Source: Elusimicrobiota bacterium
GTDB lineage: Bacteria > Elusimicrobiota > Elusimicrobia > UBA1565
Assembly: GCA_016218495.1 (NCBI GenBank)
Contig: JACRDU010000094.1
Span: 42,608 to 106,607 of the forward strand
DNA: 64,000 nucleotides
Direction: 5' to 3'
Shown: piece after piece, positions 6,902 through 25,981 of the stretch
Position numbering within the stretch: the first letter of the stretch is position 1
Layout: every line of letters begins with the position of its first letter
Position numbers and translations under genes: made by a program
The notes under the pieces: generated by a model
Seen by the model: only the letters and a program-made list of their open reading frames with translations
Told to the model about the DNA's origin: nothing
The model's database searches: none

Positions 6902-6905
6902 GGTC

Positions 6906-10853: not shown

Positions 10854-10867
10854 CAGGGCGTAGTACT

Positions 10868-12253
10868 TCACGGGGTTAGGATGCCCGGGCCCTGTTTCAG
10901 ACGCAAGGCCTCGATCAGCTGCCGGCGCTGCGCGTCGGTGGGATGGGCCTCGAACGCCGCGCGCAGCTGCGCCTCGGCCTCCGTCCCGCGGCCTTCGGCG
11001 GCGAGGCAGCGGGCCAACCCGAGGCGGGCGTCGACGACGTCGGGGCCGTTGGAGCCGTCCGCCTCGGCCGCCGCCAGCGCGGCCTCGAAGTCGGCGCGGG
11101 CCGTCCCCAGGTCGCTGCGCACCGCGGCCAGGCGCCCGCGCAGGACCAGCCAGCGCGTGCGTTGGCCCGGCTGCCCGGCTTGGAGGAGCGGCTCGGCCTC
11201 CTGGAGGTGGCGCGCCGCCGCGTCCAGGTCCCCGCCCATCAGCGCGGCTTCGGCCTTGCCCAGGTGCGAGGTCAGCCACAGATGGCGCGACACCTCGGGC
11301 ATCGGCGCCCGCCCGGCGTCGGGGGGCGCAGGCGCCTTAGGCTCCGCCCCGGCCGAGGGCCCCCAGCGCAGGGCCGCGCTGACGCGGTGGGCGCTGCCCA
11401 GGTCGCCGAAGGAGACGAAGGCGTAGTCGAAGCGGAAGGCAGGGGCGACCCAGCCCACGCCGGCGCTCAGGCCCAGCCCGGCGTCGTTGCGCATGTCGTA
11501 GCCCAGGCGCAACGGCAGCCGACCCAGGGCCAGCGTCTCGAGGCCCACCGCCACGACGGGGTCCTCCAGGCGCTTCTTCGTCACGTCGAGCGCCAGCGTG
11601 GTCTGCTGGCCGCGCAGGCTGCGGGTATAGGCCCCGCCCAGGCGCAGCTGGGTGGGCAGCTTCTCGGAGGCGCGCTGGAACTTGACGTCCGGCCCCGCGT
11701 TGCGCAGCGCGGCGCCCAAAGCGGCCCCCGGCAGCGCCGCGGGCCGCCACAGCGCCCCGGCGTCGAAGGCCATCGTCTGAGCGGTGACCGCCTCGATGGA
11801 CTCGCGTATGTACTTCACGGCACCGCCGACGGCCCAGGTCCCGCCGAAGCGCCGGCCGTAGCCTCCCGACAGGGCCAGGTCGGAGATCCCGTAGCTGCCC
11901 AGGCCGGCGCCGGTCCGGTTGGCGATGGTCGTCTTCGGGACGTCGCCGAAGCTCAGGTAGTTGAGCTGGGCCCCCCAGCCCCGGCGCGCGGCGAACGAGG
12001 CGTATTCCTGGCTCACGCCCTCGAAGTACTGGTTGTGCATGAAGACGGCCTCGTTGCGCTCCACGAAGCCCAGCCCGCCCGGGTTGTAGAGCAGGGCGTT
12101 GGCGTCCGAGGCCAGCGCGGTGTAGGCTCCACCGAGCGACACCGGCCGCGCGTCGGCGTCGAGCGAGAGGAACTCGAAGGGGTGCGCGCCCGGCCCGGCC
12201 TGGGCGGGGAGGGCCAGCAGCAGGGCCAGCGCGCAGGCCGCGAGGCGCCTCAT
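10868..12253 (-). CDS. PorV-like (T9SS shuttle / UPF0164-FadL-like) outer-membrane beta-barrel protein with a C-terminal TPR-like helical domain.
   Basis: ATG at 12253..12251 overlaps the TGA of the giant gene (ATGA). Signal peptide MRRLAACALALLLALPAQA. PorV-family N-terminal signature …RPVSLGGAYTALASDANALLYNPGGLGFV…, then beta-strand-rich sequence ending ~res 330. A helical, Ala/Leu-rich C-terminus follows (…GDLDAAARHLQEAEPLL…ARLGLARCLAAEGRGTEAEAQL…). Confidence 0.65.
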   Translation of the reverse strand: MRRLAACALALLLALPAQAGPGAHPFEFLSLDADARPVSLGGAYTALASDANALLYNPGGLGFVERNEAVFMHNQYFEGVSQEYASFAARRGWGAQLNYLSFGDVPKTTIANRTGAGLGSYGISDLALSGGYGRRFGGTWAVGGAVKYIRESIEAVTAQTMAFDAGALWRPAALPGAALGAALRNAGPDVKFQRASEKLPTQLRLGGAYTRSLRGQQTTLALDVTKKRLEDPVVAVGLETLALGRLPLRLGYDMRNDAGLGLSAGVGWVAPAFRFDYAFVSFGDLGSAHRVSAALRWGPSAGAEPKAPAPPDAGRAPMPEVSRHLWLTSHLGKAEAALMGGDLDAAARHLQEAEPLLQAGQPGQRTRWLVLRGRLAAVRSDLGTARADFEAALAAAEADGSNGPDVVDARLGLARCLAAEGRGTEAEAQLRAAFEAHPTDAQRRQLIEALRLKQGPGILTP

Positions 12254-15200
12254 CGGATGACCCCGATCTTCACCACGACGGGCTCCGCGCCCGGGCTCTT
12301 GATGACGGCGAAGTAGCCGCCCGACGCCACGTCCTCCCCGCTGGAGTTGCGCGCGTCCCACTGCACGGTGCCGGTACCCGAATCGGTGCCGAAGGAGGCC
12401 ACCTCGCTGCCGGTCAGGGTGTAGATGGTGATGCGCACCGAGGCCGGCAGGTTGTCGAAGAGGATGCCCGACAGTGGGTCGCCGCGGCTGAAGGCCCGGC
12501 CCTCGTCGGGGTTGCCCCCGCTGGGCTTGTACGGGTTCGGATAGACGGTCACCGAGGAGAGGTTCGCGGCCACGGCGCCAATCAGCGAGAAGAAGCTGAA
12601 GTGCGGGGTATGCCCCGTCACGGTGCGCGCCGTCTCGTCCACCGACGCCGAGAACTCCTTCTTCCACTTGCCCGAAGGGGCGTCGTAGGTGACGATGCTC
12701 AGGTTGGCGGCCCGCAGGGTCGTGCCGTCCACCACGCCGTCCCCGTCGCTGTCGGGGTAGTTGAAGACCAGGGCCGCCGTCTGCCCGCCGGCCAGCAGGC
12801 TCTGCCCGCTGCCCAGGTTCACCTCGAGCGTCGCCCCGATGGAGACCACATCGGCGGCGTGGGACGGCGCGCCGGCCGGGTTGACCTGGACGGTGACCAC
12901 CGTGGTCGAGGCGCTCACCGCGCCGGCCGGGATGAGCACCTTGGTGACCACCGCGCTGCCCGACTCGGCGGCCGCTATGGTGTTCGACACGGCGTTGTTG
13001 ACGGTCTGCTCCTTCTTGACCCGCCCCCCGCCCTGGTCGGTCTCGCGCACCTCGAAGTTGACCGGGTCGACCGACACGGAGACGAGGCCGGGCGAGGGGT
13101 CGGAGTTGGAGAAGACGTCCGTGGCCACGGCGCGCAGGTCGTACTCCGCCGGCGCCAGGCCGGTCACGTCCCAGTGCACGAAGTAGGGGTGGTCGGCGTC
13201 GGGGTTCGCGTGCTGGAGGTTCGCCGCCGGTATGGCCGTCCAGGCCGCGCCGCTGGAGGCCCGGTACTGGAACAGGACCTGGCGCGTGCGCTCCGGCTCG
13301 CCGCTGACCAGCTCCGCCATCACCAGCACGCGGTTGCCGCTGATGCGCTTGCCCGAGGCCGGCACCTTGATGGCGGCGCGCACCCCGGACAGCGAGCCCA
13401 GGGCCGGCGCCGCCGTCACCGCCCCCGGCCCGGCCTCCTCGCGCCCGCAGCGGTTGAGGGCCCGCAGTCCGAACTTGTAGACGACGCCGTTGGCTAGCGC
13501 CCCGGTCGTGTACGAGGTCGCCGACGCCCCGAGCGCGGCCAGCGGCGCCGCATAGTCGACCGTCCCCGTGCCGCTGTCGTAGTAGAGCCGGTAGCCGGTC
13601 AGGCCCGGGTCCGGGGAGGAGACCCAACTCAGGCGGATGACGCTGCCCGGCAGGCTCTCCGCGCTCAGCTCGCCGGCCCCCAACGGGGTGCTGGGCAAAG
13701 TGACGAACGACACCACGGCGTCGAAGGCGGTGAAGGCGCCGCCCAAGCCGCGGTTGCGCACCCGGTAGTAGTAGGTCGAACAGCCCTGCAGGCCGGCATC
13801 GGCGTGGACGGCGGTCGTCCCGGTGAAGACCGAGGCGTAGGAGGCCGAATCGCTCGAGCGCTGCACCTCGGCGAGGGTCCCGGCGGGGTTGCCGTTGAGC
13901 CCCCAGCTCAGGGTGGCGCTGGTCGCGGAAACGGCCGCGGCCGTGCCCGCCGGCGGCAGCGCGGGGGTGTAGACCGTGGCGGCGGCGGAGAGGGCCCCCG
14001 CCCGGGTCTCGGCCACCGCCGCTACGGCGAGGCCTACGGCCGAGTTCGGGGACAGCCCCGTCTGCACGAAGGCCGGCGCCGAAGGCGCGGCCAGCAGGGC
14101 GCCCGTGGCCGGAACGCGGGCCTGGTAGCCCTCGGCCCCGGCGACGGCGGCCCAGGTCCAGGAGACCGACGACGCCCCGAGCGCCGCCCCCGAGGGAGCG
14201 CCCGGCGCGCCCGGCGCGGCCCCGCCGAAGTCCCAGTTGCGGTTCCCGCCGGAATTGACGCTGTCGCCGGACGCGGCGCGGATGGGAATCCCGCCGGAGG
14301 CGTCGGAGTCCGAGACCTGGGCGCGGGAGACCGCCGCCGTGCCGGTGACCACGAGGTACCACGGGGACCCTGCCGTCGAGCTGCGCAGGCGCAAGCGCGG
14401 CGTCAGGCCGGGGGCGCCCAGGGACAGCGCGGCCACGGTCAGCGTGCTGCCGGCCTGCACGGTGACCGAGGACTGGGACGCCGCCTCCAGCGCGTTCAGG
14501 GCCGTGAAAGGCGAGAACCTCAGGCGCTGTTCGCCGGTGCCGGTCAGGCGCAGGGTGCCGGCGGGGAACTGCGCGGGACCTCCGGGCTCCAGCCAGTCCC
14601 CGCGCACGCGGTGGGTGAAGGCGCCTCCGTCGAAAGCCCCGGTCGTTATGGTGACGCCTCCGTTCAGCTCCAGCGGACCCAGCGCGCGCAGATAGGCGAT
14701 GCCGTTGGTTCCGAAACCGACCTCCAGGTTCTTGAAGGGGTTCCCCGCCAACGGGGCCACCGAGGCCCTGTTCGGCGCGCTCATCTGCATGAAGGTGACG
14801 GTGCTGGCCTGCGCGTTGAAGTACCCGCCGGTCTGGGTCCAGGCCCCGATGCGCAGGTTTCCGGCCCCGCCCAAGGTGAAGGTGCCCGCCAGCAGCGAGA
14901 AGGAATGCGCCTCGACCGTGGCCCCGTGGACGAAGGCCGCCCCGCTGGAGTTCGTCACCTCGACATGCGGGAGCTGGGGACGGCCGGTGCCCGTGACGAC
15001 TTGATAGCTGGACCCGTAGAATTCCAGCATGTCGCCTGCGCTGTAGGCGCAGCAATACGGGCTGTCGATGCGCATGTTCCCGCCCACGCGCACGCGCCCG
15101 TTCCCCCACTGGAACCGCCCGTACCCGCTCATCAGCACGTCGCCGGTCACGGTCACCGTGGCATTGGATATCTGGAAGACCCCGGTCGTGAGCTGGACCG

Positions 15201-18200
15201 TCCCGACGACGAGGCCCGTCGTCGCGACGACGGCGGGCCCGCCATATGACCCGCTCAGGGTCAAGCTGGAAAGGCTCAGCGGCAGGTCGAAGAAGGTGAA
15301 CTTCACCAGCGGGGTGGAGAAGACGACGGAGTCGCCCGACCTGGGAACCCGGTCGCCGACCCAGTTGGCGGCCTCGGAGGCATTGATGCTCGTCCCGCCC
15401 CCGTCCCAATAGCGCGTCGCGGGACCCTCCGACGTCCATGTCGAGGCCGACGCGGCGTACTCCGTCGCCGTTCCGACGGCATTGCGCGCGCGCACGCGGG
15501 CATAGTAGGTCGCCTCGGGGGTCAGCCCCGCGAATGAAGCCGAGAAAGCGTCCGCGCTCCAGGCGCCTGCCGTCTCCGCACCGAAGCCGGCCAGCGTCGA
15601 GACCGCGGCCTGGAACTGCGTGCCGGACGGGTTGCCCCCCGAGCCCCAGGAGAAGGTCAGGGAGGACGGGGACACCATGGTGAACGCGATGCCCGTCGGG
15701 ACGGCGGCGGCGGTGTAGGTCGAGGCCGTCACGGTCCCCGTCTCGGTGCCGGCCGCGTTGCGCGCCTTGGCGGTGAAGGTGTACTGCGTGTTCGGCGAGA
15801 GCCCCGTGAACTGGCGCGCCGTGCCGGGGTCGTAGGACTCGTGCGTGGCCAGGGTCGCGCCGTTCGTCCCGCCGACGACATAGGCCCGCCCGGCGATGAC
15901 GGCCCCGGCGGCCCGGCCGCGTGCCGTGGGCAAGCCGGTGCGCAGCGTCCAGGCGTCGGCGGACGGGTCGTACTCCTGCGTCACGCCGATGGGCCCCGCC
16001 GTGGCGGACCCCCCGAAGAGGTATATTTTCCCCCCGATGGCGGCGAAGGCCGGGTAGGAGACGGCGAAAGGGGCGCCCGACACCGTCGACCAGGAATCCA
16101 GCCCGGGGTCGTAGCGCATCCCGCTCGAGAGGGTGACGCCGTCGTAACCCGCCAGGGAATAGAGCCTACCCCCCACCTCGGCCGCCGCCATGGCATGGTT
16201 GATGCCGGGCAAAGAAGCCCGGGCCGACCAGGCCCCGGCGTCCGCGTCGAAGGCGCTGACCGCGGCGATGTAGCCCGACGCGCCCAGGCCCCCCAGGCCG
16301 ACGAGGCTGCGGCCCAGCACGGCCAGCCCCATGCCGGTGCGAGAGCTGGGCAAGGGTTGGAGCGAGGTCCAGGCGTTCGCGCCGGGGTCGTAGCGCCTGT
16401 TCCCCGACAGCAGCCCACCGGAGTTCTCGCCTCCGACGGCGTAGACGGCGCCGCCCAGCGCGACGGCGGCCAGCGCGTTGGCGGCCGCCGGCAGCGGCGC
16501 CTTCGTCGTCCAGGCGTCGGTGAACGGGTCGTATTCGGTGTTGGCCGTCACCGAAGCGGTGGTCCAGCCGCCCAGCGCGTAGAGCCGTCCATTCGCCGCG
16601 GCGGCGGCCAATGCGTAGCGCGCCGCCGGCAGCGGCGCCTTCACCGTCCACGCTTCGCCGTGCCAGCCCGCGTAGACGCCGTCCTTGGCGATGTTCGTGC
16701 CCGACAGACCCGCCCCGAGGTTCGTGAAGGCCGGCGTCGGCGAATAGGCCGCGACGACCAGGGTCGTGGTGGAGATTTCATCAAAGACGATGGCGGTCGG
16801 GGCCTGAATCAGCGTGATGGTCGAGCCCAGCGCGGTGTAGGGGCCGGAGGGCACGGTGGACACGCGGGCGTAGTAGCTGGTGTTGGCCGAAAGGCCTGAG
16901 AATGCCGCCGAGAGGTTCAGGGTCGCAGACGAAGTCAGCGTCCCCGAGAAGTCGGCCGCCGTCGCTACCTGGGCGGCGTACTGGGTTCCGACGGGGAAGG
17001 ATGAGCCCCAGTTGAGCGCCAAGCCCGTGACAGAAACGCCGCTGACCGGGGCCGAAGAGAGCGACCAGGCTGTGAGCACGCCGGTCCGCGTGCTCTGGAT
17101 GGCGTCGTAATCCGTGGTCACCCCCACGGCGTTTCGCGCCCGTACGCGGGCGTAGTATGTGGCGGACGCCAGAAGGCCGGTGAAGGTCGCGGACGTGGCC
17201 CCGGCCGTCCAGTCGCCCACGGCTTCCGAGGGGAATGCGCCCATAGTCGAGACCGAAGCCTGGAACTCGGTCCCCGCCGGGTTCCCGTTGGCGCCCCACG
17301 ACAGCGTCAGCGAAGACCCGCCGACCATCGCGATGGCCGAGCCCGTCGGGACGGCGGCGGCGGTGTAGGTCGAGGCCGTCACCGTCCCCGTCTCGGTACC
17401 GGCCGCGTTGCGCGCCTTGGCGGTGAAGGTGTACTGCGTGTTCGGGGACAGTCCCGTGAACTGCCGCGCCGTGCCGGGGTCGAACTCCTCGTTCGCCGCC
17501 AGCGCGGGCCCGTTCACGCCGCCGACCACGTACGCCCGGCCGGCGATGACGGCACCGGCGGCCCGGCCCCGGGTGGTGGGAAGGCTCGTGCGCAGAGCCC
17601 AGGCGTCGGCGGACGGGTCGTACTCCTGGGTCACGCCGATGGGCCCCGCTGTGGCCGAGCCCCCGAAGAGGTATATCTTCCCTCCGATGGCGGCGAAGGC
17701 CGGGTAGGAGACCGCGAACGGGGCCGACGACACCGCCGACCAGGAATCCAAGCCGGGGTCGTAGCGCGTCCCGCTCGAGAGGGTGACGCCGTCATAGCCC
17801 GCCAGCGAATAGAGCCTACCCCCGACCTCGGCCGCCGCCATCGCATGGTTGATGCGTGCCAGCGGCCCGCGCGAGCCCCAGGAGTCCGTCGCCGGGTCGT
17901 AGGCGTCCACCGCCGTGATGTAGCCGGACCCTCCCAGCCCTCCCAAGGAGTAGATCTTCCCACCGAGCACGGCCGCGCCCACCCCGGTCCGGGCGGACGG
18001 CAGGGCTGCCGCCGAACTCCAGGAGTTCGTCTGGGGGTCGTAGCGCTGATGGACCGACAGGAGCCCGCCCGAGTCCTCCCCCCCGACGGCGAATATCTTC
18101 CCTCCCAGGCTGACGGCGCCCAGCGCGTTCGAGGCGCTTGGCATAGCGGCCTTCGCCGTCCAGGCGTTCGCCTGCGGGTCGTACTCGGCATTGGTCGAGA

Positions 18201-21200
18201 GCGCCGACACGCCCCAGCCGCCCAAGGCATAGATGCGTCCGCCCGCGGCGGCGGCCGACAGCCCGTAGCGTGCCGACGCCATCGCGGTCTTGGCCGTCCA
18301 GGCCTCCCCGTGCCAACCCGCGTAGACGCCGTCCTTGGCGATGTTCGTGCCCGAAAGGCCGGCCCCTAGGTTCGTGAAGGCGGGCGTCGGGGAGTAGGCC
18401 GCGACGACAAGGGTCGTGGTGGAGATTTCATCAAAGACGATGGCGGTCGGGGCCTGGATCAGCGTGATGGTCGAGCCCAGCGCGGTGTAGGGGCCGGAGG
18501 GCACGGTGGACACGCGGGCGTAGTAGCTAGTGTTGGCCGAAAGGCCTGAGAATGCCGCCGAGAGGTTCAGGGTCGCAGACGAAGTCAGCGTCCCCGAGAA
18601 GTCGGAGGCGGTCGAGAGCTGGGCCGTGTATGGAGTCTCGGACGGGAAGCCTGAGGCCCAGTTCACGCTCACGCTGGTGCCGAAGACGCCGGTGAACTGG
18701 CCGGAGGAGATGGTGGGGGGGTACATCCAATCGACGCGGCCCGAGGGGTCGTTCTCGAAGCCGGGGCCCGACTTGGAGCCGCGATAGTCCCGCATGGTGA
18801 TGCGCGAGCCGGCGCCCAGCAGGCTGCCGTCGATGTTGACGCTGACGGCGGCCAGGAATTCCATCGCGGTGATGGTGGCCACATGCGTGCCGCCTTGGAA
18901 TTGGACTCCGGTGGAGGCCGTCACGGTCATCGACGCGATGCTCAGAGGCCCATTGGCGGTGGCGTCGACAAGCAGTCCGACCGCCAAGGCGTTCAAGGTA
19001 GTCGAAGCCAATGTGATGCCTACGCTCCCGCCTCTGAGCTGCACGGCCCGCCCGGAGCCTCCCGTGGCGTGGAAGGCGGTCCGCTCCGCCAGGGTGCCCG
19101 TTCCCGTGAAGATGTCGAGGGCGTCCGGGCCGGCGACATAAGAGTCGCGCAGGCTGATGCCGGAGGAACCCGCCACCATGAAGGCTGGCACCGAACCCGA
19201 GCCGGTGACGGTGCTGCGGGCGATGAGGGCCCGCTGGCCGAACTCGGCATAGACCCCGTAGCCCCCCCCCAGGAGCCAGGAATCGGACACCCATGTGTCC
19301 GGCGCTGAGTAGAGGTAGAACGCCTTGGAAGTCGGGCCGGAAGCCGCCGCCGTGCTCTTTGACAGGGTGTTGGAGCTGGCCGCGAAGCCGAAGGTGACGG
19401 CGTTGCCCGCCAAGCTGTAGAGATAAGAGCGCGAGATCGTGTTCGTCGAGGCGTTGTCTAGGTAGAGCGCCGAGAATCCCGCGCTTCGGGCCGTGACGGT
19501 CGAACGGTCGATCAGGTTGCCGTTGGCGTTGGCGCCCAGGAAGGCCGCATAGCCCGTCGTGTTGATGATCATGTTCAAGACGATGCTGTTGGAGGCCGCC
19601 GTCGTCATGTACAGCGCGTAGGCCGCCGGAGCGTCGGACAGCAGCGTGCTCTGCTGGATGGTGTTGGCGTTGGCGCCGTTGCTAAGGGCCATAGCCGTGC
19701 CGCTCGACGAATAGATGTAGCAGGATGTGATGCTGTTCGAGGAAGAGGCGTCAATCGACGCTCCTCCCCCCGTGCCGTAGGCGGCCAAAGTCGAGCCCTG
19801 TACCAGGTTCCCGTCCGAGAGGTCCGTCAGGCTGAGAGCGCTGCCTATGACGCTGCGCAGCACGCTGCCAGATACCGTGTTAAACGAGGAAGACTGGGCG
19901 ACGAAGGCTGAGAGATTCCCGGCGATTACGGTGGAGTCCTCGATTCGGTTCCAGTTCGCGCCGGCGATGAGGGTGGCGGCGATGCCCGTGGCGCTGTAGA
20001 TGTAAGCCCGCGAGACGGTGCTGTGGGTCACCCCCGCCATCGCCAGGCCGTATTCCGCGGTCCCCGTGGTCGTGATGGTGCTCTCTACCACGCTATGGTA
20101 GGAGCCGCCCATGGACAATCCCCGCCCCACCGAGGAACGCAGGAAGCTGCGGGCGATGGTGGTCGAGGAGCTCCCGGCGGATATCGAGGCCGCGTAGTTT
20201 CCAATGGCGCCGGCCGTCGCCGTGCTCCGGTCCATCACGGAATTGACGGCCCCGAGCATGACGGCCACGCCCGAGGTGTTGTGAGCCGAGCTTTCAAGGA
20301 TGGTGTTGTCCGGCCCGGAGAGCCAAAGGGTGTGGTTCGCCGCGGAGGCGTTGCTGAAGGTGCTGCGATAGAGGGTGTTGTGGTGGGCGCTGGCGCCGTT
20401 GAAGTAGACCGCTCGTCCCACGCCGACCGCCACGGTCGAGAACTCGACACGGCCGTAGGACTCCATGTCGATAGCGGCCACCACGACCTGGGTGCTCGAC
20501 TCGACAAGCACCCTTGAGACCGTCACATAGCCCGATGTGACCGCTATGCCCCAGTTGACCGCCGCGCTGGGGGCGATGCGCAGGGTTTCGATGCTGACGC
20601 TCGTGGCCTTGACCTGGAACGCCGCGGTGGAGGCGGCTGGCGGGTCGACGGTGGGGGGAGAGGACAGGGCGGTGTCGCCCAGGATGCGCAGGCGGTAACC
20701 GTTGGTCGCCTTGTTGGCGACCGTAACCTGTTCTTGATAGGTGGCGCTGTCGCGGATGACGACGCAGGTCTCGGCGCTCAGCGACGCCGGGACTGCCGCC
20801 AGCGCCGCGGTGAGCGTCGTAAAGGGGGCTCCGGCCTTGGCTACGTCGAGGCTCAGGGCGCAGCCGGGCGGCGCGGGGTACGCTGTCGTCCGAGTCGAGC
20901 CCAGGACGCCGTAGGCCGTCTCGACACCCACGGAATTGCGGGCCTGGACGCGGAAATACCAGGTCGTGAGCGCGGACAGAGAGGTCATCGTCGAGACGAG
21001 GGAAGTCTGCCAGGAGCCGGTCTGCGAGGAGGCTCCGGAATTGAAGTCGGAGGCCGTCGACAGATGAACGCGGAACTCGGTGCCGCCGGGGTTGCCGTTG
21101 GCCAGCCACTGCACGGCGACCGAGGTGGCGAAGACGCCGATGAAGGCGGGGGCGGCCGTGGAGGGGACGGCGGCCCAGGTGTAGGTCGAGAAGGCGGAAC

Positions 21201-24200
21201 TCTCCCCGGTCTCGACGCCGGCCCTGTTGCGCGCCTTGGCCTTGAACGAGTACTGCGTGTTCGGCTGCAGCCCGCTGAAGTGCCGCGCCCGCGCCATGTC
21301 GAACGACCAGGCCGTGCTGGTCACCGCCACGTCGGTGCCGCCTCCGGCCCCGTAGAGCTGGCCGTTCAAGACCGCCAGCCCGAACGCCGTGCGCGCCGGG
21401 GCCAGGCTACTGTACCTGGCCCAGGCGTCGACGGCGGGGTCATACTCCTCCACCAGCCCGCTGGCCGCGACGGGGTCCCGGCCCCCGACGACGTAGATCT
21501 TGCCGCCCACGGCCGCCGAGCGCCCCGCGTAGCGGGCCGGCGACGGCAAGACCGTCGGGGAGGACCAGGAGCCCAAGCCGGCGTCGAAGGCGGCGTGCAG
21601 GGTGGAGGGGACCCCGGAGGCCGTGCTACCCGCCACCAGGTAGACCTTCCCGCCCAGCGCGGCCGCGGCGCCTATCCCCCAGGCCGTCGGCACCGCCGTC
21701 CCGGTTGCCCAGGCACCCGCCGCCGGGTCGAAGGCCTCGTTGGCGCTCATCAGGTTCGACCCGCTCCAGCCGCCCAGCACGTGGACGCGGCCGTTGAGCT
21801 CGACGGCGCCCGCATAGGAGCGCGCCGTCGGCATCGCCGTCTTGCTGCTCCAGGCGTTGGCTGCGATGTCGTAGGCGTAGTTCGTCGTCAGCACCGGCCC
21901 GCCGCTGGCCCCGCCGACGACGTAGATGGTCCCCCCGACCCGCGCGGAGGCGAAGTCGGCGCGAGTGGCGGGCATGGCGGCCAATGCGCTCCAGGCCCCC
22001 GACGAGGGGTCGTAGGCCTCGGCGGAGGAGATGTAGGTGGTGCCGTCGTGGCCACCGTAAGCGTAGAGCCGGCCGGCGTAGGCGCAGAGGCCCGAGTTGT
22101 TGCGACCGGTGCTCATCGGGGGCAGCCACGCCCAGGCGTCGGACTTCCAGCCAGCGTACGCCCCGTCGCGGGCGATGTTGACCCCGCTCTGCCCGGCGTC
22201 TGAGCGCAGCGCCCCGGCCCCGGCGGCGTGGGCCCAGGCCACCAGGCTGTGCGAGGAGACCTCGTCGAAGAAGACCGCCGTCGGCGACTCGATGAGGGTG
22301 ACCGTGGAGCCCAGGGCGGTGAAGGGCCCGGAGAGGCCGGTGGAGACGCGCGCGTAGTAGCTGGTGTTGGCGCTCAAAGCCGAAAAGGATGCGGCGAGGT
22401 TCAGGGTCGTCGACGAGGCCAGGGTCCCCGAGAAGTCGGCAGCAGTAGACAGTTGAGCGGTATATTGGGTCCCGCCGGGGAAGCCCGACGCCCAGCCCGC
22501 CGTCAGGGCGGAGGTCCCCACCGAGCTCAAGCCCACGGCGGACAACATCCCGGGCTCCGCCACGAAGACGCTGCTCTCCGTGCCCCAGCCGCTGCGCGCC
22601 AGGCCGCCGTCGATGGTCTGCAGGCGGATGTAGTAGGTCGTCCCGGAGCGGATGTTGGCGGAGGCCGTGCCCAGGTCCACGCGGAAGTAGAGCCCGTGCT
22701 TGGCCGTCGCGTCCCCCGGCCAGACCCGGTAGGCCGGGCGCGGGTACGGGGTGTAGAGCGGCGAGCCGTTGTTCCAGGACACGGCGAAGCTCCCCGGCGA
22801 GGTCACGCGCAGGCCGTCGGGGGAAAGGGTCATCGGCGCGCTGGCCATGACCAAAGCGTAGGACAGGCTGGCCGTGGCCGAGGCCCCGTCGTAGGCCCCG
22901 GCGGCCCACTTGACCGTCATCGTCCCCCCGCCGGGCGCCAGGTCCAGGGTGACCGTATCCACGGCCGGGGCGCTGGGCGGCGCGTTGTACGGGGCCGCGT
23001 CGTTAAGCAGCAGGACTTCGTCCGTGCCTTGGTCCCAGTTGGCCACCAGCGCGTCCAGGTCCCCGTCGCCGTCGTAGTCCGCCCAAGCCGCGTCGACGCT
23101 GGCGTCGCCGGTCTCGGTCAGCAGGATTTTGGCGAAGACGCCACCGTCGTTGCGCAGCAGGTACTCGCGGGAATTCGTGCCGGACCCCGCCACGAGGATG
23201 TCCGCGTCCCCGTCGGCGTCGTAGTCGCCCACGGCCACGGCATAGGACGAAGAGGTGCCGGGGATGAGGGTCTTCACGAAGGCGCCGCCCGTGTTGCGCA
23301 GCAAGGCGATGTCGTCGAACCAGCCGTTGGCGACCACGGCGTCGAGGCGTCCGTCGCCGTCGAAGTCGCCCCAGGCCACATCTGCCGAGGAGCCTGCGGT
23401 ACCAGACAGGGTTACCGGGGTCAAGGTCCCGCCGTCGTTGCGCAAGAGGACCTCGTCGCCGGAATCGTTGGCCAGGATGGCGTCGAGGTCCCCGTCGTTG
23501 TCGTAGTCGCCCCAGGCGATGGCCTTCGTGTTGCCGCCGGTGCCTTCGATGGTGACGGCGCTCAGGACCCCGCCGTCGTTGCGCAGCAGGATTTCGTCGG
23601 CATCGGCCGGCGTCGCCTGCGCCAGCAAGGCGTCCGGGTCGCCGTCGTTGTCGTAGTCGCCCCAGGCCACGGCCACGCCCGACCCCGCCGTGCCGGGGAT
23701 GGTGACGGGCGCCCAGGTCCCCGCGTCGTTGCGCAGCAGGACGGCCCCCGAGTTGTCGCTGTTGGTGGCCAGCAGGGCGTCGAGGTCCCCGTCCCCGTCG
23801 GCGTCGGCCCAGGCCACGGCCCCGGCGTTGCGGGCGGAGGAGGTGATGACGACCTGGGTCAAGGTCCCGGCGCCGTCGTTGCGCAGGATGAGGGCGTCCA
23901 TGTTGGCGCTGTTGGCCACGAAGGCGTCCAGGTCCCCGTCCTTGTCGTAGTCCCCCCAGGCGACCCCGAAAGAGATTAGGCCGCTGCCCAGTTGGGTGCG
24001 CACGGAGAACAGCGGTGTGCGCGTGGAGCCCAGGACGGTGAAGGGGCCGGCCGGGGCCGTGGCCACGCGGGCGTAGTAGGTGGCATAGAGCGCCAAGCCC
24101 GTGAAGGTCGCCGAGAGGTTGAGCGTCGCCGACGAGGCCACGGTCCCCGAGAAGTCGGAGACTGAGGAGAGCTGGGCGGTGTATTGGGTGCCAGCCGGAT

Positions 24201-25332
24201 AGTTCGAGGCCCAATTGACCGTCAGGCTGGTGCCGAACACCCCCGAGAACGGGGCTGACGCGATGAAGGCGTAGGCGTCCTTCAGCACCCGGTAGTCCGC
24301 CCCGTTGCCCAGGCCGCTCAGGTAGACCCCGCCCGAGCCGTCGACAGCGACGCCGCGCGCCTCGCTGTTGACCGAGCCATCCGCATAGAGCGTCGTCGAG
24401 ACCAGGGTCCCGTCGGCGTCGTAGCGCCAGAGTCGGAAGTCGTTGGCCGACGCGCCGGCGGAGCTTCCCGCCGCGAAGACCCGGCCGCCGGCGTCCACAG
24501 CCACCGCATAGCCGAAATCGCCGCCGCTGCCCCACGTGCGCGACCAGGCCAAGGTCCCGGAAGGGCTGTACTTGAGGAGCAGGAAGTCGGGGCCGCTATA
24601 GCCGACGACATAGACATTCCCCGAAGCGTCGATGGTCACGCCCCGGGCCCGCTCCGATTGGCCCGTCGTGTAAGTGCTGAGCCAGACGATGTTCCCCGAG
24701 GGGTCGAACTTGATGGTCTTGATGTCGTCATTGGCATCGCCGTGGTGGCCCACCGCGTAGGCGTAGCCGGAGGCGTCGACGGCAAGGGCCCCCATTCCGT
24801 CGTTGAGGCCGCTGTCGTAGGAGCGGCTCCAGACCACGGCGCCCGTGGAGGCGTATTTGATCAATCGCCAGTCCGAACCGCTGGTGCCGCCGACGATGAT
24901 GGATCCGTCGGCAGCGCTACCCGCCCCCCAGGCCAGGTCCGTCCCCCCGCCGTCGTAGCTCCCCGTCAAGGCCACGCCGCCGGTGGAGGTGAACTTCACG
25001 AAGCGAAAGTCCAGGTTCGAGCCGTTGAAGGTCTGCCCCGCCGCGTACACGTTCCCCGCGGCGTCCAGCGAAAATCCCCCGGCCGCGTCGAGGTTGCCGC
25101 TGTCATAGGTCCAGGTCGACAGAATGACGCCGGCGGACGAGAGGCGGACGATGTTGATGTTGCTGCCGCTGTTGCCGGAGGTATAGACGGCGCCGGAGGC
25201 GTCCAAAGCCAACCCGTGCGCCGCCTCGGAATCCCCGCCGTCCCAGACCAGGTCCCAGAGCGGCGCCGCGGCGGCGTAATTAGGGAAAGCCGATGCCAGC
25301 AGGGACGCTAATAGGAAAGCCCGGGGTGACAT
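12250..25332 (-). CDS. Giant (4360 aa) secreted multidomain surface protein / adhesin-like T9SS cargo.
   Basis: Signal peptide MSPRAFLLASLLASAFPNYAAAA. SBBP-type beta-propeller repeats (DASGNVYVVG…). Seven FG-GAP/VCBS repeats (WGDYDNDGDLDA…RNDGG). Three 6-7-blade Kelch propellers (…YAYGGHDGT…, …YALGGW…). A PbH1-type right-handed beta-helix (repeated S.xNTI..S / NxxxxN ladders). >12 FN3-like modules with the recurring motif TAQLSTxSDFSGT…YYARV. The C-terminal 80 aa match the T9SS type-A CTD (…VTVYPNPYKP…VRITIYTLTGSEVASF…WDARNSSGEDVASGGYFAVIKS…VVVKIGVIR). Confidence 0.85.
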   Translation of the reverse strand: MSPRAFLLASLLASAFPNYAAAAPLWDLVWDGGDSEAAHGLALDASGAVYTSGNSGSNINIVRLSSAGVILSTWTYDSGNLDAAGGFSLDAAGNVYAAGQTFNGSNLDFRFVKFTSTGGVALTGSYDGGGTDLAWGAGSAADGSIIVGGTSGSDWRLIKYASTGAVVWSRSYDSGLNDGMGALAVDASGYAYAVGHHGDANDDIKTIKFDPSGNIVWLSTYTTGQSERARGVTIDASGNVYVVGYSGPDFLLLKYSPSGTLAWSRTWGSGGDFGYAVAVDAGGRVFAAGSSAGASANDFRLWRYDADGTLVSTTLYADGSVNSEARGVAVDGSGGVYLSGLGNGADYRVLKDAYAFIASAPFSGVFGTSLTVNWASNYPAGTQYTAQLSSVSDFSGTVASSATLNLSATFTGLALYATYYARVATAPAGPFTVLGSTRTPLFSVRTQLGSGLISFGVAWGDYDKDGDLDAFVANSANMDALILRNDGAGTLTQVVITSSARNAGAVAWADADGDGDLDALLATNSDNSGAVLLRNDAGTWAPVTIPGTAGSGVAVAWGDYDNDGDPDALLAQATPADADEILLRNDGGVLSAVTIEGTGGNTKAIAWGDYDNDGDLDAILANDSGDEVLLRNDGGTLTPVTLSGTAGSSADVAWGDFDGDGRLDAVVANGWFDDIALLRNTGGAFVKTLIPGTSSSYAVAVGDYDADGDADILVAGSGTNSREYLLRNDGGVFAKILLTETGDASVDAAWADYDGDGDLDALVANWDQGTDEVLLLNDAAPYNAPPSAPAVDTVTLDLAPGGGTMTVKWAAGAYDGASATASLSYALVMASAPMTLSPDGLRVTSPGSFAVSWNNGSPLYTPYPRPAYRVWPGDATAKHGLYFRVDLGTASANIRSGTTYYIRLQTIDGGLARSGWGTESSVFVAEPGMLSAVGLSSVGTSALTAGWASGFPGGTQYTAQLSTAADFSGTLASSTTLNLAASFSALSANTSYYARVSTGLSGPFTALGSTVTLIESPTAVFFDEVSSHSLVAWAHAAGAGALRSDAGQSGVNIARDGAYAGWKSDAWAWLPPMSTGRNNSGLCAYAGRLYAYGGHDGTTYISSAEAYDPSSGAWSALAAMPATRADFASARVGGTIYVVGGASGGPVLTTNYAYDIAANAWSSKTAMPTARSYAGAVELNGRVHVLGGWSGSNLMSANEAFDPAAGAWATGTAVPTAWGIGAAAALGGKVYLVAGSTASGVPSTLHAAFDAGLGSWSSPTVLPSPARYAGRSAAVGGKIYVVGGRDPVAASGLVEEYDPAVDAWARYSSLAPARTAFGLAVLNGQLYGAGGGTDVAVTSTAWSFDMARARHFSGLQPNTQYSFKAKARNRAGVETGESSAFSTYTWAAVPSTAAPAFIGVFATSVAVQWLANGNPGGTEFRVHLSTASDFNSGASSQTGSWQTSLVSTMTSLSALTTWYFRVQARNSVGVETAYGVLGSTRTTAYPAPPGCALSLDVAKAGAPFTTLTAALAAVPASLSAETCVVIRDSATYQEQVTVANKATNGYRLRILGDTALSSPPTVDPPAASTAAFQVKATSVSIETLRIAPSAAVNWGIAVTSGYVTVSRVLVESSTQVVVAAIDMESYGRVEFSTVAVGVGRAVYFNGASAHHNTLYRSTFSNASAANHTLWLSGPDNTILESSAHNTSGVAVMLGAVNSVMDRSTATAGAIGNYAASISAGSSSTTIARSFLRSSVGRGLSMGGSYHSVVESTITTTGTAEYGLAMAGVTHSTVSRAYIYSATGIAATLIAGANWNRIEDSTVIAGNLSAFVAQSSSFNTVSGSVLRSVIGSALSLTDLSDGNLVQGSTLAAYGTGGGASIDASSSNSITSCYIYSSSGTAMALSNGANANTIQQSTLLSDAPAAYALYMTTAASNSIVLNMIINTTGYAAFLGANANGNLIDRSTVTARSAGFSALYLDNASTNTISRSYLYSLAGNAVTFGFAASSNTLSKSTAAASGPTSKAFYLYSAPDTWVSDSWLLGGGYGVYAEFGQRALIARSTVTGSGSVPAFMVAGSSGISLRDSYVAGPDALDIFTGTGTLAERTAFHATGGSGRAVQLRGGSVGITLASTTLNALAVGLLVDATANGPLSIASMTVTASTGVQFQGGTHVATITAMEFLAAVSVNIDGSLLGAGSRITMRDYRGSKSGPGFENDPSGRVDWMYPPTISSGQFTGVFGTSVSVNWASGFPSETPYTAQLSTASDFSGTLTSSATLNLSAAFSGLSANTSYYARVSTVPSGPYTALGSTITLIQAPTAIVFDEISTTTLVVAAYSPTPAFTNLGAGLSGTNIAKDGVYAGWHGEAWTAKTAMASARYGLSAAAAGGRIYALGGWGVSALSTNAEYDPQANAWTAKAAMPSASNALGAVSLGGKIFAVGGEDSGGLLSVHQRYDPQTNSWSSAAALPSARTGVGAAVLGGKIYSLGGLGGSGYITAVDAYDPATDSWGSRGPLARINHAMAAAEVGGRLYSLAGYDGVTLSSGTRYDPGLDSWSAVSSAPFAVSYPAFAAIGGKIYLFGGSATAGPIGVTQEYDPSADAWALRTSLPTTRGRAAGAVIAGRAYVVGGVNGPALAANEEFDPGTARQFTGLSPNTQYTFTAKARNAAGTETGTVTASTYTAAAVPTGSAIAMVGGSSLTLSWGANGNPAGTEFQASVSTMGAFPSEAVGDWTAGATSATFTGLLASATYYARVRARNAVGVTTDYDAIQSTRTGVLTAWSLSSAPVSGVSVTGLALNWGSSFPVGTQYAAQVATAADFSGTLTSSATLNLSAAFSGLSANTSYYARVSTVPSGPYTALGSTITLIQAPTAIVFDEISTTTLVVAAYSPTPAFTNLGAGLSGTNIAKDGVYAGWHGEAWTVKAPLPAARYALAAAAANGRLYALGGWTTASVTANTEYDPFTDAWTTKAPLPAAANALAAVALGGAVYAVGGENSGGLLSGNRRYDPGANAWTSLQPLPSSRTGMGLAVLGRSLVGLGGLGASGYIAAVSAFDADAGAWSARASLPGINHAMAAAEVGGRLYSLAGYDGVTLSSGMRYDPGLDSWSTVSGAPFAVSYPAFAAIGGKIYLFGGSATAGPIGVTQEYDPSADAWTLRTGLPTARGRAAGAVIAGRAYVVGGTNGATLATHESYDPGTARQFTGLSPNTQYTFTAKARNAAGTETGTVTASTYTAAAVPTGIAFTMVSPSSLTFSWGSGGNPSGTQFQAAVSTLAGFGAETAGAWSADAFSASFAGLTPEATYYARVRARNAVGTATEYAASASTWTSEGPATRYWDGGGTSINASEAANWVGDRVPRSGDSVVFSTPLVKFTFFDLPLSLSSLTLSGSYGGPAVVATTGLVVGTVQLTTGVFQISNATVTVTGDVLMSGYGRFQWGNGRVRVGGNMRIDSPYCCAYSAGDMLEFYGSSYQVVTGTGRPQLPHVEVTNSSGAAFVHGATVEAHSFSLLAGTFTLGGAGNLRIGAWTQTGGYFNAQASTVTFMQMSAPNRASVAPLAGNPFKNLEVGFGTNGIAYLRALGPLELNGGVTITTGAFDGGAFTHRVRGDWLEPGGPAQFPAGTLRLTGTGEQRLRFSPFTALNALEAASQSSVTVQAGSTLTVAALSLGAPGLTPRLRLRSSTAGSPWYLVVTGTAAVSRAQVSDSDASGGIPIRAASGDSVNSGGNRNWDFGGAAPGAPGAPSGAALGASSVSWTWAAVAGAEGYQARVPATGALLAAPSAPAFVQTGLSPNSAVGLAVAAVAETRAGALSAAATVYTPALPPAGTAAAVSATSATLSWGLNGNPAGTLAEVQRSSDSASYASVFTGTTAVHADAGLQGCSTYYYRVRNRGLGGAFTAFDAVVSFVTLPSTPLGAGELSAESLPGSVIRLSWVSSPDPGLTGYRLYYDSGTGTVDYAAPLAALGASATSYTTGALANGVVYKFGLRALNRCGREEAGPGAVTAAPALGSLSGVRAAIKVPASGKRISGNRVLVMAELVSGEPERTRQVLFQYRASSGAAWTAIPAANLQHANPDADHPYFVHWDVTGLAPAEYDLRAVATDVFSNSDPSPGLVSVSVDPVNFEVRETDQGGGRVKKEQTVNNAVSNTIAAAESGSAVVTKVLIPAGAVSASTTVVTVQVNPAGAPSHAADVVSIGATLEVNLGSGQSLLAGGQTAALVFNYPDSDGDGVVDGTTLRAANLSIVTYDAPSGKWKKEFSASVDETARTVTGHTPHFSFFSLIGAVAANLSSVTVYPNPYKPSGGNPDEGRAFSRGDPLSGILFDNLPASVRITIYTLTGSEVASFGTDSGTGTVQWDARNSSGEDVASGGYFAVIKSPGAEPVVVKIGVIR
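15440..18650. repeat. Intragenic tandem duplication, two copies of ~1650 nt (~550 aa each: FN3-Kelch propeller-FN3-FN3).
   Basis: Near-identical DNA at a 1650-nt offset: 16741-16980 vs 18391-18630, 15841-16260 vs 17491-17910, 15680-15840 vs 17330-17490. The flanks (15351-15680 vs 17001-17330) are ~70-75% identical. A 107-aa protein stretch LSTASDFSGT…GEAWT occurs twice identically. Duplicated shadow ORFs appear in the track (16880 vs 18530; 16781..17299 vs 18527..19294). Confidence 0.85.
22950..24000. repeat. Array of 7 FG-GAP-type coding repeats (~150 nt period) within the giant gene.
   Basis: Protein repeats WGDYDKDGDLD / WADADGDGDLD / WGDYDNDGDPD / WGDYDNDGDLD / WGDFDGDGRLD / VGDYDADGDAD / WADYDGDGDLD, each followed by …LLRNDGG…. 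The periodic signature also shows in shadow ORFs 22228..23979(+) and 23003..24535(-). Nucleotide coordinates are approximate. Confidence 0.6.
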
Positions 25333-25352
25333 GGTCTCGGCGCGCCGCCCTC

Positions 25353-25381
25353 AGTATTGGGCCGCGACCACCGGCTGTCAA
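25353..25381 (-). promoter_or_regulatory. Putative sigma70-like promoter for the giant cargo gene (TTGACA-17-AATACT).
   Basis: Minus-strand reading: TTGACAgccggtggtcgcggcccAATACTgagggcggcgcgccgagaccATG. The -35 is a perfect TTGACA and the -10 matches 4/6. The ~20-nt leader contains GAGGG. Confidence 0.35.
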
Positions 25382-25446
25382 CGAGAAATTATCCTGCGAA
25401 TGACAGCTGAAAGCGTCGAAGATGTCATCCGTCAGGGAGCCCGACA

Positions 25447-25475
25447 TTGACAGGGAAGGACCTGCCGGTTAGATT
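25447..25475 (+). promoter_or_regulatory. Putative sigma70-like promoter (TTGACA-17-TAGATT) driving a leaderless or near-leaderless transcript of the 25481 gene.
   Basis: ttgacagggaaggacctgccggttagattctggcATG. The ATG begins 6 nt after the -10 hexamer, and there is no room for an SD. Confidence 0.4.
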
Positions 25476-25480
25476 CTGGC

Positions 25481-25978
25481 ATGAGACAATTACTCCTCGT
25501 CGCGCTCCTGGCCTGGGGCGGGTATTACGCGTTCAAACGGTTCGCCGTCGGCTCGGACGCGTATCAGGCCTATGCGAAATACTCGGAGGCCTACCGCTTC
25601 GGCAAGTGCCCGGAGCTCAAGGAGATGACCGAGGAGAACGCCCTGGCCGACGTGGAGCAGTACTGCGCCTCTTCCACCTTCATGGGCCGTCCGATGCCGT
25701 CGGCGGCGAGCATGGCCAATGACATGGCCATGACCCCTTCCGGGGTCATGCTCAAGATCGTGCGCAAGGTGGAATCCGAGACCAAGGACTCCTCTGGGGT
25801 GGTCACGCTCAAGCTGGTGGAGACGCTGGGCGGAAGCGCGGCGCGCGACCCGGCGTTCAACGCCGCGCCCAGGAAGGTGGTCGCCAGGCTCCGGAAGTCA
25901 GGAGGCGCCTGGAAGGTGCTGGAGGCCGTGAACCCCGACGCCCCGCCCGCGCCGGCGCAAGACGCGCCGGCCCAGTAG
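25481..25978 (+). CDS. Hypothetical protein with an N-terminal TM anchor.
   Basis: 165-aa ORF with N-terminal LLLVALLAWGGYYAF. It is divergent from the giant gene and convergent with the response regulator (3-nt gap). Confidence 0.5.
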   Translation: MRQLLLVALLAWGGYYAFKRFAVGSDAYQAYAKYSEAYRFGKCPELKEMTEENALADVEQYCASSTFMGRPMPSAASMANDMAMTPSGVMLKIVRKVESETKDSSGVVTLKLVETLGGSAARDPAFNAAPRKVVARLRKSGGAWKVLEAVNPDAPPAPAQDAPAQ

Positions 25979-25981
25979 CGC

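What the first reader, a model, noticed from the sequence alone, without database searches (positions are those of the whole stretch)
15440..18650. Recent ~1.65-kb in-frame tandem duplication inside the giant gene
Two consecutive ~1650-nt units share long stretches of >90% nucleotide identity, and the 321-nt segments encoding the 107-aa stretch are near-identical. Each unit encodes FN3, a Kelch propeller and two FN3. This could be genuine copy-number expansion of an adhesion module (a source of phase/antigenic or length variation), or a locus where short-read assembly may have collapsed or mis-joined copies. True copy number may differ.
Basis: seen in the sequence. Interest (0 to 1): 0.55.

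Follow-up and report, generated by a model that had tools for sequence, protein, structure and literature searches.

The report
Old tandem module duplication, patchily homogenised
A 4,360-residue surface-protein gene of an uncultured Elusimicrobia bacterium carries two adjacent, in-frame 550-codon copies of an FN3/Kelch-propeller module; the duplication is real but ancient, only patches were re-homogenised later by gene conversion, and this is ordinary for giant repeat proteins.

Summary
Window 17083-18732 (unit A) and 15433-17082 (unit B), on the minus strand inside the 12250-25332 ORF, align at an exact 1650-nt offset with no indels (77.5% nt, 74.7% aa).

The label "recent" does not hold.
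- Identity is a mosaic. Three tracts (309, 321 and 138 nt) are 90-96% identical, with almost only synonymous changes.
- The other ~53% of the unit is 59-69% identical.
- Four-fold degenerate sites differ at 0.57 in the divergent part, against a saturation expectation of 0.58. In the tracts they differ at 0.20, and at 0.04 in the youngest ~200-nt sub-tract.

The best reading is an ancient tandem duplication followed by several gene-conversion events under purifying selection.

Distant relatives carry 4-10 tandem copies of the same module with similar homogenised patches. Each module is FN3, a six-bladed Kelch propeller, a half-FN3 and FN3.

The giant gene has a T9SS-like C-terminal domain. Its stop codon overlaps the start of a PorV/PorQ-family gene. 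The whole ~15-kb block is absent from the closest available relative.

A and B share at most 76 identical bases, so they could not have been collapsed into each other. An independent k=31 assembly breaks exactly at a shared 42-mer. True copy number remains untested without reads.

Interest is low to moderate.

The parts
12250..25332 (-). Giant ORF of 4360 aa. Order of parts: signal-peptide-like N-terminus, beta-propeller-like repeats, FN3, FG-GAP/VCBS repeats, module copy C, right-handed beta-helix, module A, module B, an unassigned ~400 aa, FN3 x3, T9SS-like C-terminal domain.
   Evidence: Pfam Kelch_1 344 bits, fn3 143 bits, FG-GAP_3 111 bits, Beta_helix 64 bits; GC3 0.92; same start called on Logan contig L035
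17083..18732 (-). Tandem unit A (aa 2201-2750): FN3, three pre-Kelch strands, six-bladed Kelch, half-FN3, FN3.
   Evidence: AF2 pLDDT 89.7, pTM 0.80; Foldseek Keap1/KLHL Kelch, TM-target 0.8-0.9
15433..17082 (-). Tandem unit B (aa 2751-3300). Ungapped and in frame with A: 77.5% nt, 74.7% aa.
18295..18603 (-). Homogenised tract 1 in A (partner in B: 16645-16953). Unit aa 44-146, covering the C-terminal half of FN3-1 plus the pre-Kelch segment. 0 nonsynonymous and 14 synonymous differences. The youngest sub-tract, 18410-18605 / 16760-16955, has 2 mismatches in 196 nt.
16645..16953 (-). Homogenised tract 1 in B.
17533..17853 (-). Homogenised tract 2 in A (partner in B: 15883-16203). Unit aa 294-400, Kelch blades 4-6. 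89.7% nt, dS 0.35, dN 0.036. The segment is only 33-39% aa identical to copy C and to L001.
15883..16203 (-). Homogenised tract 2 in B.
17341..17478 (-). Homogenised tract 3 in A (partner in B: 15691-15828). Unit aa 419-464, the post-Kelch half-FN3. 0 nonsynonymous and 6 synonymous differences.
15691..15828 (-). Homogenised tract 3 in B. The Logan k=31 contig L034 ends at 15720, 30 nt into the 42-nt exact run 15691-15732.
20887..22554 (-). Older, dispersed third copy of the same module (copy C, aa ~927-1482). 46% and 44% aa identical to A and B.
24016..24264 (-). Solitary FN3 related to the first FN3 of the module (66% aa identity to unit A aa 8-90).
12253..12600 (-). C-terminal ~115 aa: T9SS-type sorting-domain-like / FlgD-Ig-like domain.
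   Evidence: PorZ C-terminal region E 7e-10; TIGR04183 16.1 bits, below its cut-off of 23; FlgD_ig, CHU_C weak
10868..12253 (-). Downstream gene, 461 aa: PorV/PorQ-family outer-membrane protein with a C-terminal TPR. Its ATG overlaps the giant gene's TGA (ATGA).
   Evidence: (NF033709 159 bits, cut-off 90); same gene called on Logan contig L034; same gene order in L026
25353..25381 (-). Sigma-70-like promoter match (TTGACA-17-AATACT) 21 nt upstream of the giant gene's ATG.
   Evidence: consensus match only

Best explanation
The two 1650-nt units are an ancient, in-frame tandem duplication of a composite 550-residue module. The module is FN3, a six-bladed Kelch propeller flanked by what looks like the two halves of a second FN3, then FN3. 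It sits inside a giant secreted surface protein of an Elusimicrobia bacterium.

After the copies had diverged to silent-site saturation, at least three short stretches were copied from one unit to the other by intragenic gene conversion, at different times. One ~200-nt piece was converted very recently. Purifying selection has since allowed almost only synonymous change in those stretches. The result is the mosaic that looked like a 'recent' duplication.

Shown here: the duplication, its register, the heterogeneous silent-site divergence, the module fold, and the same array-plus-patch pattern in relatives.

Inferred: the mechanism (unequal recombination or slippage for the duplication, RecA-type conversion for the patches), and the function (a modular, probably glycan- or protein-binding stalk, exported through a T9SS-like CTD/PorV-type route).
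For: Exact 1650-nt offset with no indels.

Silent-site divergence is heterogeneous.
- dS is 0.17-0.35 in the three tracts, against 0.83-1.60 elsewhere. dN/dS is 0-0.10 in the tracts and 0.2-0.5 elsewhere.
- At codons with identical amino acids, 17% differ in the tracts against 51% elsewhere (Fisher p 1.4e-12).
- The heterogeneity survives a-priori 50-codon bins (chi2 p 9e-7; four-fold sites p 1.6e-5).
- Four-fold sites differ at 35/179 in the tracts and 64/112 elsewhere, where saturation would give 0.58. The sub-tract aa 44-108 differs at 2/48.

The tracts are not intrinsically constrained.
- Blades 4-6 are 94% identical between A and B but 33-39% identical to copy C and L001.
- Silent differences of A and B against C in tract 1 are 0.46.

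Relatives show the same behaviour.
- They carry arrays of 4-10 modules with within-array identities of 44-79%.
- They have embedded high-identity patches, for example ~600 nt at 100% inside an 80%-identical two-module duplication in L027.
- These patches concentrate in the FN3 parts.

Independent assembly: the Logan contig is 100% identical up to the first shared 31-mer and breaks there.
Against: - The tract boundaries were drawn after looking at the data, although the a-priori-bin test agrees.
- No formal recombination test with multiple paralogues (GENECONV or RDP) was run.
- Only the 64-kb window was available, not the rest of the genome. External donors for either the conserved or the divergent segments cannot be excluded.
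- Tract 3 (aa 419-464) also has few silent differences to copy C (4/30). Part of its similarity may therefore reflect codon bias at two-fold codons, or conversion that also involved C.
- There is no read-level evidence for copy number.
Confidence: 0.78

Rival explanations
1. One reading: a recent duplication of the whole 1.65-kb unit, after which some segments diverged fast under diversifying selection.
For: Three tracts are 90-96% identical and one ~196-nt piece is 99% identical. Surface proteins are often under diversifying selection.
Against: The divergent segments are saturated at silent sites (four-fold 0.57 against 0.58 expected; dS 0.8-1.6). Their dN/dS is 0.2-0.5, not above 1. Selection on the protein cannot raise dS five-fold within one gene.
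Confidence: 0.04
2. The mosaic arose the other way round. The duplication is moderately young (the age of the conserved tracts), and the divergent segments were imported by recombination from other, unsampled module paralogues or from other strains.
For: The genome belongs to a lineage with many FN3/Kelch modules, and module copy C lies in the same gene. In unit aa 1-43, A and B are no closer to each other (37%) than to C (42-44%).
Against: No donor was found in the window. In the large divergent segment aa 147-293, A and B are still each other's closest relatives (56%, against 35-48% to C and L001). Four separate imports would be needed, against three conversions.
Confidence: 0.13
3. Assembly artefact: either the duplication or its copy number is wrong. 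That would mean a chimeric join of strain variants, or collapse of additional near-identical units.
For: Repeats fragment assemblies here. The Logan contigs break at 10354-10360, 15720 and 23644, all at repeats. MAG contigs can be chimeric.
Against: - A and B differ at 22.5% of positions and share at most 76 identical bases, so they cannot collapse onto each other at usual k-mer or read lengths.
- The reading frame is intact through both units, with GC3 of 0.90-0.91.
- Relatives from other samples have the same tandem arrangement.
- The k=31 break point is exactly what two genuine copies predict.
Confidence: 0.05

Closest known systems
Periscope Proteins: variable-length bacterial surface proteins such as SasG, Rib and Sgo_0707 (PMC8201768)
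   Same: A secreted surface protein with structured domains arrayed in tandem. DNA similarity between repeats could allow in-frame gain or loss of units. Repeat number differs among homologues.
   Different: - In Periscope Proteins adjacent repeats are 82-100% identical at protein level, and copy number varies between close strains.
- Here there are only two tandem units, 75% identical, with high identity confined to tracts of 140-320 nt.
- The unit is a 550-residue multi-domain module containing a propeller, not a single small stalk domain.
- Strain-level variation could not be examined.
Concerted evolution by intragenic gene conversion in tandem-repeat genes (established population-genetic concept; my own knowledge)
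   Same: Patches of low synonymous divergence are embedded in saturated background between paralogous repeats. Similar patches occur in independent arrays of relatives.
   Different: Homogenisation here is partial. In the relatives it concentrates on the FN3 scaffold parts while the Kelch propellers stay diverged. In this gene, blades 4-6 were also homogenised.
T9SS cargo proteins with a C-terminal sorting domain and PorV/PorQ shuttle proteins (Bacteroidota paradigm; NCBIfam NF033709, TIGR04183)
   Same: A C-terminal Ig-like domain resembles T9SS CTDs. An adjacent, apparently translationally coupled PorV/PorQ-family gene is present. The same gene order occurs in L026.
   Different: The organism is an Elusimicrobia MAG. 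The CTD scores below the TIGR04183 cut-off. The PorV-like protein carries an extra TPR tail. No other T9SS component was seen in the 64-kb window.
Giant repeat-rich proteins of uncultured bacteria (bioRxiv 10.1101/2023.11.21.568195)
   Same: A very long extracellular protein from a metagenome-derived genome, built of repeated adhesion-type domains whose repeats fragment assemblies.
   Different: It is much smaller (4,360 aa, against 30,000 aa or more), from a different phylum and with a different domain set. No predation-related enzymatic domains were detected.

Membership tests
Tandem in-frame segmental duplication | Two adjacent copies in the same orientation, with a period that is a multiple of 3 and an intact reading frame | tested here: met
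   Offset 1650 = 550 codons, no gaps, one uninterrupted ORF
Recent duplication | Uniformly low synonymous divergence over the whole unit | tested here: not met
   dS is 0.17-0.35 in the tracts but 0.83-1.60 elsewhere. Four-fold sites differ at 0.20 against 0.57, with saturation at 0.58
Gene conversion / concerted evolution between repeats | Significant spatial heterogeneity of silent-site divergence that local constraint does not explain | tested here: met
   Fisher p 1.4e-12 and 8.5e-11; a-priori bins p 9e-7. The tracts are not conserved against copy C or L001
Gene conversion / concerted evolution between repeats | A formal recombination test with donor and recipient identified among all paralogues | not tested
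   Only the window's three copies were available. GENECONV/RDP were not run
Periscope Proteins | A tandem array of structured domains in a cell-surface protein | tested here: met
   Domain array. Surface location is inferred from the signal-peptide-like N-terminus (read by eye) and the CTD/PorV context
Periscope Proteins | High identity between adjacent repeats (82-100% protein; highly similar DNA) | tested here: not met
   74.7% aa and 77.5% nt overall; at least 90% only in about a third of the unit
Periscope Proteins | Repeat-number variation between closely related strains | not testable with these tools
   No close relative carries the gene, and the nearest contig (L033) lacks the whole block. 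Only distant homologues could be compared (2 tandem copies here against 4-10)
Kelch beta-propeller | Six Kelch blades forming a closed propeller | tested here: met
   Pfam Kelch_1 and related families. The AF2 model has pLDDT above 90 through aa 140-420. Foldseek matches Keap1/KLHL Kelch domains at E 1e-22 to 1e-24, TM-target 0.8-0.9
Fibronectin type III | A full-length match to the fn3 profile (seven strands) | tested here: inconclusive
   FN3-3 scores 30.9 bits full length. FN3-1 scores 21.5 bits (cut-off 25) full length. The post-Kelch element matches only profile positions 49-82; hhalign aligns it to the C-terminal half at 95-96% probability. The pre-Kelch segment shows no detectable homology
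T9SS cargo (type A CTD) | A C-terminal sorting domain reaching the TIGR04183 cut-off | tested here: not met
   16.1 bits against a cut-off of 23. There is a local match to the PorZ C-terminal region at E 7e-10 and weak FlgD_ig/CHU_C matches. The domain is CTD-like, but membership is not established
T9SS cargo (type A CTD) | T9SS machinery present in the genome | tested here: inconclusive
   A PorV/PorQ-family gene lies adjacent (159 bits, cut-off 90). The remaining components cannot be assessed from a 64-kb window
Diversity-generating retroelement target (considered) | Mismatches between repeat copies concentrated at adenines of one copy | tested here: not met
   Mismatches are dominated by G<->C exchanges (161 of 371) with no adenine bias

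The most novel reading that the evidence does not exclude
The FN3-[Kelch nested in a split FN3]-FN3 cassette is a mobile building block of giant T9SS-like cargo proteins in Elusimicrobia and their relatives. In these arrays, gene conversion would keep the FN3 scaffold homogeneous while selection keeps the propellers different (here blades 1-3). Each array would then present a set of distinct binding specificities on a uniform stalk. The homogenised scaffold tracts would at the same time serve as in-frame recombination sites for gain, loss or shuffling of propellers.
Probability: 0.2. Interest if true: 0.45.

Novelty: new member of a known kind. Interest (0 to 1): 0.25.

Why it matters
It matters mainly as a correction and a caution. 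Patches of near-identity inside a repeat do not date the duplication, and the silent sites elsewhere in the unit must be checked. The analysis also shows that the repeat is unlikely to be an assembly artefact.

Biologically it adds a documented example of concerted evolution in a large multi-domain module of a giant surface protein from an uncultivated phylum. The gene is coupled to a PorV/PorQ-type gene and lies in a ~15-kb block that is variable between related genomes.

If the scaffold-homogenised, propeller-diversified pattern is general, it would be a modest but testable idea about how such arrays evolve new binding specificities.

Tried and rejected
- The search with the whole 4360-aa protein timed out.
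- Exact look-ups of the giant protein and of the source's PolA found nothing, so the NCBI source contig itself could not be fetched.
- The unit search returned nothing above 54% identity and no protein longer than 934 aa. The JGI giant ORFs later found by DNA scan were also missing from it, so the protein database is probably not a good place to find giant orthologues.
- GTDB representatives and JGI metagenomes hold no close relative: best 52% and 44%.
- A DGR-type origin of the divergent segments was rejected because there is no adenine bias.
- No tRNA genes occur in the window. No terminator-like site lies between the giant gene and the next gene.
- Splicing the pre- and post-Kelch segments in silico did not restore a full-length fn3 match. 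The nested-FN3 idea therefore rests on the AF2 strand pattern only.
- The AFDB Foldseek library was unavailable.
- No paper mentions SRR12113407.


Full report
**The observation**

The region lies inside one uninterrupted minus-strand ORF, window 12250-25332, of 4360 aa. Its third-position GC is 0.92.

Sliding identity at an offset of exactly 1650 nt is 17-48% outside the region. It rises to 55-100% from about 15430 to 17050, paired with 17080-18700. The repeat finder reports several families with 1650-nt spacing. blastn of the gene against itself gives a single 1619-nt HSP at that offset, 79.6% identical. TRF misses the repeat only because its longest period is 500.

At the protein level the units are aa 2201-2750 (A, window 17083-18732) and aa 2751-3300 (B, window 15433-17082). 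They align without a single gap, at 74.7% aa and 77.5% nt.

- The perfectly identical protein run is 103 aa, not 107. It is encoded by 309 nt with 14 mismatches, all silent.
- The best 321-nt window is 94.7% identical.

**What the unit is**

Pfam finds Kelch, fn3, FG-GAP and beta-helix families in the giant protein.

An AlphaFold2 model of unit A, built on a 19-sequence alignment, is confident: pLDDT 89.7 and pTM 0.80. Its core matches six-bladed Kelch propellers such as Keap1 and the KLHL proteins, with Foldseek E values of 1e-22 to 1e-24 and TM-target of 0.8-0.9.

The first ~92 and last ~92 residues are full FN3 domains. The segment just after the propeller matches only the C-terminal half of FN3 (Pfam profile positions 46-82; hhalign 95-96% probability). 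Three beta-strands precede the propeller. The propeller therefore appears to be inserted into a second FN3. This is an inference, because the pre-Kelch segment has no detectable FN3 homology and I had no model coordinates.

A third, older copy of the whole module lies at window 20887-22554. It is 46% and 44% aa identical to A and B. A solitary FN3 of the same type lies at 24016-24264.

**Age of the duplication**

Identity is a mosaic. Three tracts are 90-96% identical. The remaining ~53% of the unit is 59-69% identical.

| Tract | Unit aa | Window in A | Window in B |
|---|---|---|---|
| 1 | 44-146 | 18295-18603 | 16645-16953 |
| 2 | 294-400 | 17533-17853 | 15883-16203 |
| 3 | 419-464 | 17341-17478 | 15691-15828 |

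Nei-Gojobori estimates are as follows.

| Segment | dS | dN |
|---|---|---|
| Tract 1 | 0.18 | 0 |
| Tract 2 | 0.35 | 0.036 |
| Tract 3 | 0.17 | 0 |
| Divergent segments | 0.83-1.60 | dN/dS 0.2-0.5 |

Several further tests support real heterogeneity in silent-site divergence.
- At codons encoding the same amino acid in both copies, 17% differ in the tracts and 51% elsewhere (Fisher p 1.4e-12).
- With bins of 50 codons fixed in advance, the heterogeneity remains (chi2 p 9e-7; four-fold sites p 1.6e-5).
- At four-fold sites, 35/179 differ in the tracts and 64/112 (0.57) elsewhere. The expectation at saturation for this base composition is 0.58.
- Within tract 1, the sub-tract aa 44-108 differs at only 2/48 four-fold sites. 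It holds exact runs of 76, 71 and 47 nt.

The tracts are not simply constrained sequence.
- Blades 4-6 are 94% identical between A and B, but only 33-39% identical to copy C and to the nearest foreign module, L001.
- Silent differences of A or B against C in tract 1 are 0.46.

There is no adenine bias in the mismatches, so a DGR-type process is excluded.

The simplest account is an ancient duplication followed by at least three conversion events of different ages. Purifying selection has acted throughout.

One caveat applies to tract 3. It also shows few silent differences to copy C (4/30). Codon bias at two-fold codons, or conversion involving C, may contribute there.

**Relatives**

PolA and a histidine kinase in the window are 100% identical to proteins of an NCBI Elusimicrobia MAG, on a contig of 135,743 nt.

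No close orthologue of the module exists in the collections searched.
- Protein database: best 49-54% identity, on Elusimicrobia MAG fragments.
- GTDB representatives: 52% and 39%.
- JGI metagenomes: 41-44%.

Four JGI contigs (L024-L027) carry giant ORFs with 4-10 tandem copies of the same module. In L025 most units lack the first FN3.

Within-array identities are 44-79%. The arrays show the same kind of embedded patches.
- L027 has a two-module duplication at 80% identity that contains ~600 nt at 100%.
- L024 has patches around 90%.
- Across these arrays, excess within-array identity and the 92-100% bins lie in the FN3 parts. The Kelch bins stay at 48-88%.

The A/B pair is therefore a typical product of how this module family evolves. 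It is not an unusual recent event.

**Assembly**

A and B share no exact run longer than 76 nt, so they cannot be collapsed onto one another.

The Logan assembly (k=31) of run SRR12113407 yields three contigs identical or nearly identical to the window.

| Logan contig | Window range | Identity |
|---|---|---|
| L032 | 1-10360 | 99.99% |
| L034 | 10354-15720 | 100% |
| L035 | 23644-26089 | 99.96% |

L034 ends at 15720. Its last 31-mer still contains the B-specific base at 15690. The next 31-mer would lie wholly inside the 42-nt run 15691-15732, which is shared with 17341-17382. This is exactly the break expected if both copies are present in the reads.

This does not measure copy number. Collapse of an additional near-identical unit remains possible without depth data.

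**Context and likely function**

The giant protein begins with a signal-peptide-like sequence (read by eye). It ends in a domain resembling T9SS sorting domains: a local match to the PorZ C-terminal region at E 7e-10, and TIGR04183 at 16.1 bits, below its cut-off of 23.

Its TGA overlaps the ATG of a 461-aa PorV/PorQ-family protein with a TPR tail (window 10868-12253; NF033709 at 159 bits against a cut-off of 90). The following gene (9798-10871) overlaps again. L026 has the same order, giant gene then PorV-like gene.

The nearest relative contig, L033 (72-84% nt identity), is collinear on both sides but lacks window ~10914-25977. That block comprises the PorV-like gene, the giant gene and a 165-aa ORF. 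About 42 nt homologous to the 3' end of the PorV-like gene remain in L033, which hints at a deletion in that lineage.

I therefore read the gene as an accessory, surface-exposed modular binding protein. That function is inferred, not shown.

**Comparison with known systems**

The closest named concept is the Periscope Protein class (PMC8201768). This gene shares the tandem structured domains and the potential for in-frame recombination. It fails the defining high inter-repeat identity, and its strain-level variability could not be tested.

It also resembles T9SS cargo with PorV partners, but membership is not established. It is a small example of the giant repeat proteins seen in uncultured bacteria.

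**Verdict**

The duplication is real, in frame and ancient, and has been patchily re-homogenised. It is a new member of a known kind, of low to moderate interest.

Noticed in passing
window 10868-12253 (-) and 9798-10871 (-): A PorV/PorQ-family outer-membrane protein with a C-terminal TPR lies directly downstream of the giant gene, with an ATGA stop/start overlap. The next gene overlaps again (GTGA), which suggests an operon. The 1523-aa ORF that the ORF listing reports at 10868..15439 is this gene plus alternative-frame read-through into the giant gene.
   Followed up: yes
window ~10914-25977 versus L033 8677-8691: The closest available relative contig (ENA ERZ925380, 72-84% nt identity) is collinear on both sides but lacks this ~15-kb block: the PorV-like gene, the giant gene and a 165-aa ORF at 25481-25978. 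About 42 nt homologous to the 3' end of the PorV-like gene remain in L033, hinting at a deletion in the relative.
   Followed up: partly
unit A aa 93-140 and 418-460 (window 18313-18456 and 17353-17481); the same positions in unit B: The Kelch propeller appears to be inserted inside an FN3. Only a C-terminal half-FN3 follows it (hhalign 95-96% probability), and three strands precede it in the AF2 model. The pre-Kelch segment has no detectable FN3 homology, and no coordinates were available to check strand pairing.
   Followed up: partly
window 20887-22554 and 24016-24264 (-): A third, much older copy of the whole FN3/Kelch module (46% aa identity to A) lies upstream of the beta-helix region. 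A solitary FN3 of the same subtype (66% aa identity) lies near the N-terminus.
   Followed up: yes
L027 ORF nt ~1400-2000 versus ~4740-5340 (locus L027, ORF 4790-13285): A ~600-nt tract at 100% identity sits inside a two-module (3339-nt) duplication that is otherwise 56-90% identical. It spans the FN3 trio at the module junction. It is either a very recent conversion or an assembly effect in that metagenome contig.
   Followed up: partly
L024-L027 module arrays: In all four relatives' arrays, the bins reaching 92-100% identity lie in the FN3 parts of the module. The Kelch bins stay at 48-88%. In the window's A/B pair, blades 4-6 are additionally homogenised, while the module junction (the last FN3 and the first 43 aa) is among the most diverged parts.
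   Followed up: partly
window 23621-23961 and 10061-10453: There are 147-nt tandem repeats (FG-GAP/VCBS blades) and short GC-rich tandem repeats in the Pro/Ala-rich gene 9798-10871. The independent Logan contigs break at both places (23644 and 10354-10360).
   Followed up: partly
window 14233-15432 (-), giant protein aa 3301-3700; and 22558-22965, aa 790-925: Two stretches of the giant protein have no Pfam match at E below 0.01. Their folds were not examined.
   Followed up: no
Homologous-protein results: No hit longer than 934 aa appeared for the module query. Yet giant ORFs of 2,800-4,300 aa with 4-10 modules exist in JGI contigs, and the source MAG's own proteins are in the database. Giant proteins seem to be missed by that search, so the absence of orthologues there is weak evidence.
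   Followed up: no
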